In this document: one piece after another, positions 54,501 to 57,500 of the stretch
Numbering within the stretch: the first letter of the stretch is position 1
How the letters are laid out: each line of letters begins with the position of its first letter
Assembly: GCF_050920415.1 (NCBI RefSeq)
Contig: NZ_CP169309.1
Strand: one strand, 5' to 3'
Source: Escherichia coli
GTDB taxonomy: Bacteria > Pseudomonadota > Gammaproteobacteria > Enterobacterales > Enterobacteriaceae
Length of the DNA stretch: 64,000 bases
Program-made: the position numbers

Positions 54501-57500
54501 ACCATCTCTTCAAGAGAGGCATTTTCTGCCAGTTTCAGTGTCATCGCGCCGACCATGCTGTCACCAGCGCCAACGGTGCTCTGGCTTTTCACCGGTGGTG
54601 GCACAACCTGAATGCAGTTTTCACTATCAACGCCCAGCGCCCCTTGTGGACCCAGGGAAACGACAACTCGTTTGGCCTTGCCGCTATTAACGATTTCCTG
54701 CGCGGCTTTGCGGACATCGTCTGGCTGGGTGAGTTCGCGATTCACCAGCGCACTGAGTTCTTTTTGGTTAGGCTTAACCAACTCGATGTTACCAATCGCC
54801 AGTGCTGCACTTAACGCTTCGCCAGAACTGTCGACGATACAGCGGATCCCTTGGTTTTGCGCAGCGGAAATCAGTTGGGTTAATTTTTCTAGCTTCACAC
54901 CTGGCGGCAGGCTTCCGCTTATGACCAGGATAGCACCGGATTCAATTTCCAGAACTTGCTCTTCAAGCTGGCGAAACTCATCTTCACTTAATGCCGCGCC
55001 TGGCATGACAAAACGATACTGCTCACCGCTTGCTTCCACATGTACGTGTAAATTCTGCCGGGTCCAGTCTTTGGCTTCTACAGTAGCGACGGGGACATTT
55101 TCATCTGCCAACAGTGAAACCAGATGTTCGCCGGTCGCACCACCCGCCGGGAAGATCGCTGTGGCACTGCCTCCAAGATGGGCAATGGCGCGGGCGACGT
55201 TGATGCCGCCGCCTCCGGGTTCGAATACCGGTGCGGTACAGCGCAGCTTTCCTTCGGGATAAATTTGCGGGGTAATTGTTGCGCTATCGAGAGAGGGCGC
55301 AAGTGTCAACGTATAGATACGTACCATCATTTCCTCCTATAGGCTGATTTCAGTCTGGCACCGAATCAGCGGAAAGTGAAGAAATTAACAATATGATTTA
55401 TTAGAGCTTTATTTAAAATTTTGCAGATAAATATATATAAATAAAAATCTGTTTTCGCCACATGCTTATTCAAAAAATGAAATAAGAATATATTGCTAAG
55501 TTATTCGCGCCTTTTTATAATTCGTTACCTTTCCAGGGACGCTAATCTTTGATCCTTAAGAAAGTTTCCGGGACCGCGAAGGTCTCTTTTTTTGTTGTAC
55601 GGACTCTTGATAAATGAAGCTTTTGAAGACAGTTCCTGCCATCGTTATGTTGGCGGGGGGCATGTTTGCGTCACTGAATGCAGCTGCCGATGATTCCGTT
55701 TTTACTGTCATGGACGATCCTGCCAGCGCTAAAAAACCTTTCGAAGGTAATCTGAATGCAGGATATCTTGCACAATCAGGCAATACGAAAAGCTCCTCAC
55801 TTACGGCTGACACTACCATGACCTGGTATGGACATACCACTGCCTGGTCGCTGTGGGGGAACGCCAGTAATACCTCTTCTAATGATGAGCGTTCTTCAGA
55901 AAAATATGCGGCGGGCGGGCGTAGCCGTTTTAATTTAACTGATTATGACTATTTATTTGGGCAGGCAAGCTGGCTGACAGACCGTTATAACGGCTATCGA
56001 GAGCGCGATGTGTTGACCGCGGGTTATGGTCGCCAGTTTTTGAATGGCCCGGTACACAGTTTCCGCTTTGAATTCGGTCCAGGTGTGCGTTACGACAAAT
56101 ATACCGACAATGCCAGTGAAACCCAGCCGCTGGGTTATGCCTCCGGGGCTTATGCATGGCAGTTGACTGACAACGCTAAATTTACGCAGGGTGTTTCCGT
56201 CTTTGGCGCGGAAGACACAACGCTGAACTCTGAAAGCGCATTAAATGTTGCTATTAATGAACATTTTGGACTGAAGGTGGCTTACAACGTCACATGGAAC
56301 TCTGAACCTCCAGAGTCTGCACCGGAACATACCGATCGTCGGACAACCTTATCGCTGGGCTACAGCATGTAACATTATCTGCCGGACCGTAGTATGCGGT
56401 CTGGCTGTTTTCGTTTGTCACTGCTCAGCCCCAAATCATTGCTGCCCAACGTAGCAACAACATAGCGCCACAGATTGCCAGTAGCACCACCACCATCTTC
56501 CAGTGTTTTTTATCAAAGCGTTTAGTCGGCATACCAGTGTCCTGCATATCTCTTGTGCGTGATAACGGAGTGTAACAAAAGGGACAGGCAACAAGGGATT
56601 TTTTGCAATTGCAGCCGTCGGGTGGCGTTGTGCACCCGGTCACTGTTATTGAGTTTAAAGTATATGTATCAACATATACATCGTAAATATTTAGTTATAA
56701 ATACGCCTGTAGTTCATCTGGACTAAAGCTCAGGCTTTGGCTGATTACATTTATAGCTGCATAATATATTTCTACCGTTTTATAATGATTATGATGAATG
56801 GCTATATGAACAGCTGATATGTTGTCATGATTTTTAGCGGCCAACAGTGTGAATAACTGATGTTGACTAAAAGAATATTTTTTTGCAAAAGTACACAGCG
56901 TCGATATATAAGATAGCACGACGTCTTCATTACCCTTGCTCATGGCGATGTATAAAGCAGGGGTTCCATGTGCTGTTGCGCCTTTTAATAAATCCATGAT
57001 ATTAATTTTACTGAGGTTATATATAAAGGCGATTCCATAAATTTTTGAGAGGAACCGTGTGACACACAAAGGGTGATTATTTTCCATTGCAGCGAATAAT
57101 CCTGGTTCACCGTCGTGTATTTTCATTGCTAAAATATCCATTACCAGCTTTTTGTTTAAAAGCTCTTGTGCTATTGGAGTGGTTAATGTATTAAGGAAGA
57201 TATTGATTATTTCATCGAATCCATACAACATGGTAATGTAGAGTCCAGGTGTGTCATTGGCACTTTTAGTTTGCAGTAACTTAACTAGATTATTTTTATG
57301 AATGATGCGACTATTTACCAGTGACTGAATTTCTTGCATAAATATTTTTACGTTGTCAGTATGTCCGTTCATCATAGCCAGAAATAAAGCAGGAGTACCA
57401 ACGCTATTCTGCGCAGTTATTATTTTAATGATTTCTTTTTCAGGGAGTATGCGCAACTGTTTGAATAATGTAATAAGCTGTTGAGTCTGTCCTGTGGCCA

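What the first reader, a model, noticed from the sequence alone, without database searches (positions are those of the whole stretch)
55565..55613. Weak hairpin plus T-run in the ydiY 5' region
GGGACCgcgaaGGTCTC followed by TTTTTTTG lies about 20 nt upstream of the ydiY start within a long AT-rich intergenic region. It could be a leader attenuator or the 3' end of an unannotated small transcript. The stem is short and imperfect.
Basis: seen in the sequence. Interest (0 to 1): 0.2.

Follow-up and report, generated by a model that had tools for sequence, protein, structure and literature searches.

The report
Conserved terminator in ydiY leader
The small hairpin plus T-run just upstream of the E. 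coli outer-membrane gene ydiY is a real, deeply conserved transcription terminator inside the gene's 5' untranslated leader; it cuts off a ~62-nt RNA, has been detected but never studied, and is an ordinary kind of element.

Summary
GGGACC-gcgaa-GGTCTC (55570-55586) followed by T7 (55587-55593) lies 20 nt upstream of the ydiY ATG (55614).

On sequence alone it is unremarkable: -9.5 kcal/mol, z -1.5, and one terminator-like site where shuffles give 0.5. Outside evidence shows it is functional.
- A near-consensus sigma-70 promoter (TTGCTA-17-TATAAT, 55493-55521) sits upstream.
- A published TSS map puts the ydiY start at window 55529 (85-nt 5' UTR).
- Published Term-seq of E. coli K-12 shows an abundant RNA 3' end at window 55590, the fourth U of the tract, in M63-glucose cultures.

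Together these define a ~62-nt RNA with a 5' hairpin and a terminator hairpin.

The unit is conserved upstream of ydiY across Enterobacteriaceae (76 of 80 loci). Stem arms are 96% identical, the loop is at the neutral level (63%, 25 loop variants), and the T-run is 91% identical. There is one copy per window. It is present in 5420 of 5426 E. coli genomes and matches no Rfam family.

Best reading: a leaky intrinsic terminator (attenuator) in the ydiY 5' UTR that yields a leader-derived small RNA, like IspZ from the ispU leader. I found no conserved leader peptide or antiterminator, so what controls readthrough, and any trans-acting role, remain unknown. It is a new member of a known kind, of modest interest.

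The parts
55464..55492 (+). Conserved A/T-rich block upstream of the -35 (GCTTATTCAAAAAATGAAATAAGAATATA). It looks like an UP element and/or a transcription-factor site, and contains the near-palindrome CTTATT..AATAAG.
   Evidence: Majority identity across 28 genera is 0.92 for 55464-55528, against 0.62 for the pfkB-proximal part of the same intergenic region. The function is inferred, not tested.
55493..55521 (+). Sigma-70 promoter of ydiY: -35 TTGCTA (55493-55498), 17-bp spacer, -10 TATAAT (55516-55521).
   Evidence: The consensus scan matches 10 of 12 positions. The -10 is invariant in 57 distinct leaders. A published TSS lies 8 nt downstream of the -10.
55529..55529 (+). Mapped transcription start site of ydiY, giving an 85-nt 5' UTR.
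   Evidence: Kim et al. 2012 (PMC3415461) supplementary file 2 lists the TSS at 1804192(-) in U00096.2 coordinates, with a 5' UTR of 85 nt and upstream sequence ending ...TATAATTCGTTACC. The coordinate map was checked by alignment to K-12.
55529..55564 (+). 5'-terminal hairpin of the leader. Closing stem: CUUUC 55529-55533 with GAAAG 55560-55564. Inner GGA/UCC pairs: 55537-55539 with 55553-55555. The interior is variable, and UUGAUCC (55549-55555) is near-invariant.
   Evidence: RNAalifold recovers the closing stem. Most of the 57 per-sequence MFE folds show the same hairpin. There are a few two-sided changes, for example U-A 11 / A-U 10 at one pair, but covariation is not statistically significant. 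In E. coli the hairpin is thermodynamically weak (-6.8 kcal/mol, z -0.24) and an alternative fold has nearly the same energy.
55565..55569 (+). Near-invariant single-stranded linker UUUCC directly upstream of the terminator hairpin.
   Evidence: Identity 0.96 across 28 genera. Unpaired in the consensus fold.
55570..55586 (+). Terminator hairpin GGGACC-GCGAA-GGUCUC (6 bp, 5-nt loop).
   Evidence: Energy -9.5 kcal/mol; this fold holds 98% of the ensemble. It is a scan hit. 98% of cells are paired across 57 leaders, and the G.U pair becomes A-U in 16 of them. There are 25 different loop sequences. Arms are 0.96 identical and the loop 0.63.
55587..55593 (+). U-tract (T7). The published RNA 3' end falls at 55590, the 4th U.
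   Evidence: Adams et al. 2021 Term-seq: 3' end at 1806107(-), 31,085.6 reads, M63 OD 0.4 sheet, 24 nt upstream of the ydiY ORF. At least 6 T in 8 in 51 of 57 leaders.
55594..55604 (+). Invariant GTTGTACGGAC between the terminator and the start codon. It contains the only Shine-Dalgarno-like GGA (55601-55603), 10 nt from the ATG.
   Evidence: Identity 0.98 across 28 genera. Single occurrence in the window. Its role (ribosome, sRNA or protein binding site) is inferred only.
55614..56372 (+). [quoted passage not shown]
   Evidence: ORF and RefSeq annotation. No room exists for another promoter in the 20 nt between the U-tract and the ATG (read from the sequence).
56381..56405 (+). Strong 3' terminator of ydiY (11-bp stem), listed for comparison with the weak leader terminator.
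   Evidence: Scan hit. Energy -19.3 kcal/mol, z -4.9.

Best explanation
The hairpin plus U-tract is a functional intrinsic (Rho-independent) terminator inside the 85-nt 5' UTR of ydiY.

Shown by published data:
- RNA polymerase starts at a near-consensus sigma-70 promoter, with the TSS at window 55529.
- An abundant RNA 3' end lies at 55590, which defines a ~62-nt leader RNA.

Inferred from the sequence:
- The nascent RNA first forms a 5'-terminal hairpin, then the 6-bp GGGACC/GGUCUC hairpin, which is followed at once by U7.
- A large share of polymerases release there.
- Only readthrough polymerases transcribe ydiY, because the terminator ends 20 nt before the ATG and there is no room for another promoter.
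- The stem is short next to the gene's own 3' terminator (-9.5 against -19.3 kcal/mol), so the site is probably leaky and works as an attenuator that sets, or could modulate, ydiY expression.
- The nascent 5' hairpin leaves the terminator arms free, so termination is the default state.
- I found no antiterminator and no conserved leader peptide. Any control of readthrough would therefore need a trans-acting factor (Hfq, an sRNA or a protein) binding the invariant GAAAGUUUCC/GGGACC segment. That factor is unknown.
- The 5'-terminal hairpin may also protect the RNA's 5' end.
For: - Anatomy: 6-bp stem, 5-nt loop, U7.
- Upstream promoter TTGCTA-17-TATAAT, and a published TSS at window 55529.
- Published Term-seq 3' end at the 4th U of the tract, 31,086 reads. 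This is comparable to the entry 25 nt upstream of trpE (35,983) and above thrL (11,296) in the same M63 sheets.
- K-12 differs from the window only by one loop base and one base upstream of the -35.
- Conservation in 76 of 80 Enterobacteriaceae ydiY loci.
- Arms 0.96, loop 0.63, T-run 0.91, third codon positions 0.67.
- 25 loop variants, loop lengths of 3-6 nt, and at least 6 T in 8 in 51 of 57 leaders.
- G.U becomes A-U in 16 leaders.
- Single copy, always in the ydiY leader. Present in 5420 of 5426 E. coli genomes.
- The same geometry (6-bp stem plus a U-run) was accepted as an intrinsic terminator for the ispU 5' UTR / IspZ.
Against: - The hairpin's energy is not exceptional (z -1.5), and the pattern alone is about what chance gives.
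- The 3' end appears in only one of three conditions in the one Term-seq dataset I could read.
- The mapped end keeps only 4 U. That fits trimming after termination, but it also fits exonucleolytic decay stopping at a hairpin.
- The K. oxytoca clade keeps the hairpin but has lost the U-tract (CTTATAGG, 3 T in 8). The hairpin therefore has, or also has, a role other than termination.
- Covariation is not statistically significant, because the stems hardly vary.
- I could not access any in vitro termination or readthrough measurement.
Confidence: 0.8

Rival explanations
1. The ~62-nt RNA is itself the main functional product: a trans-acting, Hfq-associated small RNA or sRNA sponge made from the ydiY 5' UTR (as IspZ and ChiZ are), with ydiY expressed only as readthrough. 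This adds to the terminator reading rather than replacing it.
For: - A near-consensus promoter with a conserved A/T-rich upstream block.
- An abundant 3' end.
- Invariant nucleotides that a plain terminator does not need: UUGAUCC, GAAAGUUUCC and the 5' CCUUUC.
- A U-rich stretch, then a hairpin, then a U-tail, which resembles the Hfq-binding module of sRNAs (from my own knowledge, not tested here).
- Two Hfq-CLASH chimeras whose ydiY half is exactly this leader (AATCTTTGATCCTTAAGAAAGTTTCCGGGACCGCGATGG), joined to SibE and to GcvB.
- Precedent of IspZ and ChiZ.
Against: - The CLASH chimeras are single reads with weak predicted duplexes (-13.5 and -4.6 kcal/mol).
- ydiY does not appear in the supplements of a RIL-seq-based sRNA prediction study.
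- The mapped 3' end keeps only 4 U, which is short for Hfq proximal-face binding (my own knowledge).
- No target or complementary sRNA was identified.
- The element was found only in the ydiY leader, never in another context within the sequences searched, which favours a cis role.
- The candidate seed segments are largely base-paired in the predicted fold.
Confidence: 0.25
2. The hairpin mainly serves the full-length ydiY mRNA as a structural, stability or binding element next to the ribosome-binding site. On this view the mapped 3' end is a decay intermediate trimmed back to the hairpin, not a termination product.
For: - The K. oxytoca, K. grimontii and K. michiganensis leaders keep GGGACC/GGUCUC but have lost the U-tract.
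- The flanking segments (UUUCC, GUUGUACGGAC) and the first seven ydiY codons are near-invariant even at synonymous sites, which suggests constraints on the translation-initiation region.
- The 3' end retains only 4 U.
- Adams et al. attribute most of the 5' UTR and ORF-internal 3' ends they analysed (LB 0.4 dataset) to RNA processing.
Against: - The U-tract is conserved (0.91; at least 6 T in 8 in 51 of 57 leaders), which a stability hairpin does not require.
- The 3' end sits inside the tract, where trimmed intrinsic terminators usually end.
- Hairpin plus U7 meets the sequence definition of an intrinsic terminator.
- No compensatory changes support pairing between the leader and the start-codon region.
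Confidence: 0.12
3. A translation-coupled attenuator of the pyrBI or trp type. A 22-codon upstream ORF (TTG 55549 to TGA 55617, whose stop overlaps the ydiY ATG as ATGA) runs through the terminator, and a ribosome following the polymerase would block hairpin formation.
For: - The frame is open in E. coli and most genera, and encodes ..KVSGT..VSFFVVRT...
- Citrobacter and Salmonella have an in-frame ATG.
- The stop overlaps or abuts the ydiY ATG.
- ydiY belongs to a ppGpp- and translation-linked iModulon.
Against: - The ORF is absent or broken in E. albertii, Silvania, five Klebsiella species, Siccibacter and others.
- Loop indels that are not multiples of 3 shift the frame and give unrelated peptides (L027, L036, L056).
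- The TTG start has no evident Shine-Dalgarno sequence (read from the sequence).
- Two of the three frames end at ATAAATGA, so the stop/ATG overlap carries little weight.
- No antiterminator pairing was found.
Confidence: 0.04
4. A chance hairpin and T-run in AT-rich intergenic DNA, with no function.
For: The energy z-score is only -1.5, and the scan expects 0.5 such sites in this 500-nt stretch.
Against: - Stem arms are 96% conserved while the loop is at the neutral level, across 28 genera.
- A mapped RNA 3' end lies in the U-tract.
- The position relative to the promoter and the ATG is fixed in 76 of 80 loci.
Confidence: 0.01

Closest known systems
IspZ, the ispU (uppS) 5' UTR intrinsic terminator (Adams et al. 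2021, eLife, PMC7815308)
   Same: - An RNA 3' end inside a 5' UTR, found by the same Term-seq study.
- A 6-bp stem-loop followed by a U-run (8 U there, 7 U here).
- The short RNA shares its promoter with the downstream gene, which needs readthrough.
   Different: - IspZ was validated by northern blot and reporter fusions, and shown to act as an sRNA sponge.
- The ydiY leader is only a row in the supplementary tables ('orphan', M63 only).
- It has no name, no northern blot and no known partner.
Leader-peptide transcription attenuators (trpL, thrL, pheL/pheM, pyrL)
   Same: A terminator lies between the promoter and the first structural gene. The terminated leader RNA is as abundant as the entry 25 nt upstream of trpE (the trp attenuator position, by my own knowledge) in the same M63 sheet. 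A genuine Phe_leader is present elsewhere in this window (62409-62533).
   Different: There is no conserved translated leader ORF, no run of regulatory codons and no alternative antiterminator pairing. There is also no Rfam match.
Canonical intrinsic (Rho-independent) terminators at gene 3' ends, e.g. ydiY's own at 56381-56405
   Same: A G+C-rich stem-loop followed directly by a U-tract. Even the arm sequences resemble each other (CCGGACCG/CGGTCTGG against CCGGGACC/GGTCTC).
   Different: The leader element sits in a 5' UTR and is much weaker (6 bp, -9.5 kcal/mol, z -1.5, against 11 bp, -19.3 kcal/mol, z -4.9). That fits partial rather than complete termination.
5'-terminal stabilising stem-loops of enterobacterial mRNAs (ompA 5' UTR type; from my own knowledge)
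   Same: The leader's first hairpin begins at, or within a nucleotide of, the mapped 5' end, and precedes an outer-membrane-protein gene.
   Different: A stabilising effect was not tested. The E. coli version is weak (-6.8 kcal/mol). ompA has no terminator in its leader.

Membership tests
Intrinsic (Rho-independent) terminator | G+C-rich stem-loop (at least 5 bp, loop of 3-8 nt) in the nascent RNA | tested here: met
   6 bp (4 G-C, 1 A-U, 1 G.U), 5-nt loop, -9.5 kcal/mol; this fold holds 98% of the ensemble.
Intrinsic (Rho-independent) terminator | U-tract immediately after the stem | tested here: met
   U7 starts at the base after the stem. At least 6 T in 8 in 51 of 57 orthologous leaders.
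Intrinsic (Rho-independent) terminator | RNA 3' end in vivo within the U-tract | tested here: met
   Taken from published data, not a new experiment. Term-seq 3' end at K-12 1806107(-), which is window 55590 (4th U), in M63. The sequence is the same apart from one loop base.
Intrinsic (Rho-independent) terminator | Termination without Rho or other factors (in vitro release; insensitivity to bicyclomycin) | not testable with these tools
   ydiY is not named in the Rho-termination table of Adams et al. (0 occurrences in supplementary file 2). That table covers LB only, where this 3' end was not called.
Leader-peptide attenuator (trp/thr/phe/pyrBI type) | Conserved translated leader ORF overlapping the control region | tested here: not met
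   The 22-codon frame is missing or broken in at least 11 of 57 leaders and frameshifted in others.
Leader-peptide attenuator (trp/thr/phe/pyrBI type) | Mutually exclusive antiterminator and terminator pairings | tested here: not met
   Per-sequence and consensus folds show the 5' hairpin and the terminator coexisting. No alternative fold captures a terminator arm.
Known Rfam cis-regulatory RNA or sRNA families (riboswitches, leaders, STnc/isr sRNAs) | Covariance-model score at or above the family's gathering threshold | tested here: not met
   The best overlapping hit is isrD at 17.1 bits against a gathering score of 37, E = 1. Nothing overlaps it at gathering thresholds over the whole window.
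5' UTR-derived sRNA (IspZ/ChiZ type) | Discrete short transcript with a defined 5' end (TSS shared with the mRNA) and a 3' end in the 5' UTR | tested here: met
   TSS at 55529 and 3' end at 55590, from two independent published datasets. No northern blot was available to me.
5' UTR-derived sRNA (IspZ/ChiZ type) | Association with Hfq or ProQ | tested here: inconclusive
   Two single-read Hfq-CLASH chimeras contain the leader. RIL-seq of nitrogen-starved cells lists only SdsR:::ydiY, labelled CDS. The original RIL-seq tables are not held.
5' UTR-derived sRNA (IspZ/ChiZ type) | A base-pairing partner whose level or activity it changes | not tested
   No partner was identified. A whole-genome target search is not possible with the sequences held here.

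The most novel reading that the evidence does not exclude
The invariant non-stem nucleotides (5' CCUUUC, UUGAUCC, GAAAGUUUCC, GUUGUACGGAC) exceed what a plain terminator needs. They could mean that the ydiY leader is a sequence-specific binding platform. One option is a conserved, so far unnamed, Hfq-associated small RNA or sponge produced across Enterobacteriaceae. The other is a factor-dependent antitermination switch that links ydiY expression to acid stress or to ppGpp and translation status.
Probability: 0.28. Interest if true: 0.55.

Novelty: new member of a known kind. Interest (0 to 1): 0.33.

Why it matters
ydiY encodes a conserved, acid-inducible outer-membrane protein of unknown function. 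Its expression must pass through this terminator, so any study of ydiY regulation that ignores the leader will misread promoter fusions.

The leader is also a clean candidate for the growing class of 5' UTR-derived small RNAs. It is very well conserved, has mapped ends and is absent from Rfam and from genome annotation. It could be added to both at little cost.

It does not change how attenuation is understood.

Tried and rejected
1. Upstream ORF running through the terminator (TTG 55549 to TGA 55617). The frame is open in many genera but absent, broken or frameshifted in others, so it is not a conserved coding feature.
2. Long-range pairing of GAAAGUUUC (55560-55568) with the start region GAAGCUUUU (55616-55624). 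Nine pairs are possible in E. coli, but the 121-nt fold has z = -0.03. Linker variants (GAAAGAUUC, GAAGGAAUC, GAAAGCUCC) have no compensating change. Not supported.
3. Antiterminator search. Consensus and per-sequence folds show no structure that competes with the terminator arms.
4. Statistical covariation. The terminator helix is paired in 98% of cells, but shuffles and slid controls show no significant covariation because the stems are almost invariant. Support comes from the pattern of conserved stem and free loop, not from covariation.
5. Rfam. No family matches at E-value or gathering thresholds.
6. Other copies. The covariance model R1 finds one copy in the window and none in the three ydiY loci that lack the leader. 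GTTGTACGGAC occurs once in the window.
7. Literature dead ends:
   - The Thomason 2015 TSS paper is not held.
   - The Cappable-seq supplement has no hit.
   - The RIL-seq 2016 supplement is not held.
   - Bar et al. 2021 do not mention ydiY.
   - No K. pneumoniae TSS for KPN_02182 appears in the stored text.
   - The hairpin sequence is printed in no paper's main text.
8. The 129-nt Raoultella insertion looked ERIC-like to me, but BLAST against E. coli genomes did not confirm it.
9. Whole-length duplex folding of SdsR against the mRNA gave energies within the range of shuffled controls and was discarded. A simple search for complementary runs replaced it.
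Full report
**What is in the sequence**

[quoted passage not shown] The 283-nt spacer between them is 33% G+C, against 49% for the window.

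- stem GGGACC (55570-55575) with GGTCTC (55581-55586)
- loop GCGAA
- T7 at 55587-55593
- the ATG 20 nt further on

The stem has six pairs including one G.U, and no mismatch.

**Is it more than chance?**

Not on its own.
- The hairpin folds at -9.5 kcal/mol. This fold holds 98% of the ensemble, but z is only -1.5 and 16 of 200 shuffles fold as well.
- The reverse strand is no better than shuffles.
- A consensus scan of 500 nt finds this one terminator-like site where shuffles give 0.5.

The case rests on evidence from outside the sequence.

**Transcript ends**

The same scan finds one promoter-like site, TTGCTA-17-TATAAT at 55493-55521, matching 10 of 12 positions.

Window coordinates map to K-12 MG1655 as K-12 = 1861697 minus window. 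A direct alignment shows only two differences in 140 nt: the last loop base (A here, T in K-12) and one base upstream of the -35.

Two published genome-wide maps then apply.
- Kim et al. 2012 (PMC3415461, supplementary file 2) list a ydiY TSS at 1804192(-) in the older coordinates. The 5' UTR is 85 nt and the upstream sequence ends ...TATAATTCGTTACC. This is window 55529, 8 nt after the -10.
- Adams et al. 2021 (PMC7815308, supplementary files 1 and 3) list a Term-seq 3' end at 1806107(-), 24 nt upstream of the ydiY ORF and classed 'orphan', with an average of 31,085.6 reads. The printed 61-nt context puts it on the fourth T of the run, window 55590.
- That entry is in the M63-glucose OD 0.4 sheets only, not in LB.
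- In the M63 sheets the entry 25 nt upstream of trpE has 35,983 reads and thrL has 11,296. The ydiY leader end is therefore not a marginal signal.

The ends define a ~62-nt RNA, and full-length ydiY mRNA must come from readthrough.

**Comparative evidence**

A scan of one genome per species with the YdiY protein returned 80 loci. They include Escherichia, Citrobacter, Salmonella, Enterobacter, Lelliottia, Leclercia, Klebsiella, Raoultella, Kosakonia, Phytobacter, Franconibacter and Siccibacter.

In 76 of them the ~100 nt before the ATG carry the same unit:
- the -10 box
- ACCTTTC
- a variable stretch
- TTGATCC
- GAAAGTTTCC
- the hairpin and its T-run
- GTTGTACGGAC

Among 57 distinct leaders:
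- The terminator helix is paired in 98% of cells.
- The wobble pair G.U is A-U in 16 leaders.
- The loop takes 25 different sequences and 3-6 nt lengths.
- At least 6 of the 8 bases after the stem are T in 51 leaders.

Majority identity in a 28-genus alignment:

| Segment | Identity |
|---|---|
| Both stem arms | 0.96 |
| Terminator loop | 0.63 |
| T-run | 0.91 |
| Closing stem of the 5' hairpin | 0.99 and 0.94 |
| Interior of the 5' hairpin | 0.59 |
| GTTGTACGGAC | 0.98 |
| Promoter block 55464-55528 | 0.92 |
| ydiY third codon positions | 0.67 |
| pfkB-proximal half of the spacer | 0.62 |

Conserved arms around a neutrally drifting loop are the signature of a selected hairpin.

Formal covariation is not significant, because the stems barely vary. 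I do not claim it.

A covariance model of the unit finds one copy in the 64-kb window (92.8 bits) and none in the three ydiY loci that lack it. The segment is present at 95% identity or more in 5420 of 5426 complete E. coli genomes. No Rfam family matches, and RefSeq annotates nothing there.

**The rest of the leader**

RNAalifold and per-sequence folding give a 5'-terminal hairpin.
- It is closed by CUUUC (55529-55533) with GAAAG (55560-55564), with inner GGA/UCC pairs.
- It is separated from the terminator by UUUCC.
- It starts at the mapped 5' end.
- Some inner pairs change on both sides (for example U-A 11 / A-U 10 at one column pair, and extended stems in L036, L044 and L081).
- In E. coli it is weak (-6.8 kcal/mol, z -0.24), and an alternative fold has nearly the same energy.

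I treat the 5' hairpin as likely, not proven.

**How it most likely works**

Shown: the promoter motif, the TSS, the 3' end in the U-tract, and selection on the hairpin and U-tract.

Inferred:
- Polymerases that start at 55529 transcribe the 5' hairpin, then the terminator hairpin and U7, and many release there. The mapped end at U4 probably reflects 3' trimming.
- Nothing in the nascent RNA competes with the terminator arms, so termination is the default.
- The stem is much weaker than ydiY's own 3' terminator (11 bp, -19.3 kcal/mol, z -4.9), so a fraction reads through and expresses ydiY.
- This is attenuation in the plain sense. Whether the fraction is regulated is unknown.

The closest documented case is IspZ. 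[quoted passage not shown]

**Rivals**

(a) A trans-acting Hfq-bound sRNA or sponge, in addition to the cis role.
- The invariant non-stem nucleotides and the strong promoter favour it.
- Hfq-CLASH has two chimeras whose ydiY half is this leader. They are single reads with weak duplexes.
- A RIL-seq-based sRNA prediction study does not list ydiY.
- The element was found only in the ydiY leader in the sequences searched.

(b) A structural or binding hairpin of the full-length mRNA, with the 3' end being a decay product.
- The K. oxytoca clade keeps the hairpin but has lost the U-tract, so termination cannot be the hairpin's only role everywhere.
- Conservation of the U-tract in 51 of 57 leaders argues that termination is selected in most lineages.

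(c) A ribosome-coupled attenuator using a 22-codon upstream ORF whose stop overlaps the ATG.
- The frame is lost or shifted in many lineages, including E. albertii.

(d) Chance. This is excluded by conservation and by the mapped end.

**Context on ydiY**

- It is annotated as acid-inducible.
- It is listed with Nac as regulator.
- It is grouped with lysP in a ppGpp- and translation-associated iModulon that responds to pH.
- It is paired with SdsR in RIL-seq of nitrogen-starved cells, with 54 and 44 chimeras, labelled CDS.
- None of these studies addresses the leader.

**Novelty and verdict**

The 3' end and the TSS already sit in supplementary tables. Nobody has joined them, named the RNA or tested the terminator. 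The element is in neither Rfam nor the genome annotation.

It is a new, well-conserved member of a known kind: an intrinsic terminator in a 5' UTR that yields a leader-derived small RNA. Interest is modest, unless the leader proves to have a trans-acting role or a regulated readthrough.

Noticed in passing
L071 1805-1933 (also L072 and L074; Raoultella and relatives): A ~129-nt insertion sits in the apical loop of the leader's 5' hairpin. It folds into its own long hairpin (-37.9 kcal/mol), while the promoter, closing stem and terminator stay intact. It looked ERIC- or MITE-like to me, but BLAST against E. coli genomes did not confirm that.
   Followed up: partly
L069 1846-2003 (K. pneumoniae); L012, L054, L065: K. 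pneumoniae keeps the promoter, hairpins and GTTGTACGGAC, but has ~65 extra nt before the ATG, which bring a better Shine-Dalgarno sequence (AGAGAG). That extra segment resembles the alternative proximal leader of three loci that lack the conserved unit altogether: C. amalonaticus S646, Phytobacter massiliensis and a MAG.
   Followed up: partly
window 55614-55634: The first seven ydiY codons (ATGAAGCTTTTGAAGACAGT) are nearly invariant at synonymous sites across genera: AAG is never AAA and ACA never varies. Later third codon positions average 0.67 identity. This points to an RNA-level constraint on the translation-initiation region. No pairing partner was found.
   Followed up: partly
window 55726-55734 and 55755-55762: SdsR (K-12 sequence) has perfect 9-nt (UUUUAGCGC) and 8-nt (CCUGCAUU) complementarity to these two sites inside the ydiY coding sequence. 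This fits the SdsR:::ydiY 'CDS' chimeras (54 and 44) reported in RIL-seq of nitrogen-starved E. coli. No chance expectation was computed for matches of this length.
   Followed up: partly
window 55464-55492: The block upstream of the -35 is as conserved as the promoter itself. It is A/T-rich and contains the near-palindrome CTTATT-N10-AATAAG. It could be an UP element or a regulator site; Nac is listed as a ydiY regulator.
   Followed up: no
window 55549-55555: The near-invariant TTGATCC in the 5' hairpin contains a GATC (Dam methylation) site at +23 to +26 of the transcript. In Klebsiella and relatives the TTG becomes GCG/ACG, but GATCC is kept.
   Followed up: no
window 56381-56405: The ydiY 3' terminator (11-bp stem, -19.3 kcal/mol, z -4.9) lies between the convergent ydiY and yniD genes. 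Its arms (CCGGACCG/CGGTCTGG) resemble those of the leader hairpin.
   Followed up: no
window 55345 (minus strand): The published pfkB TSS (1804376 in old coordinates, 18-nt 5' UTR) maps here. The divergent pfkB and ydiY promoters are therefore about 180 nt apart and do not overlap.
   Followed up: no
window 62409-62533 (+) and 38493-38535 (-): These are the only Rfam hits at gathering thresholds in the window: Phe_leader (the pheM/pheST attenuator, 73.6 bits) and ES036/CssrF sRNA (38.9 bits, just above its threshold of 37.6).
   Followed up: no
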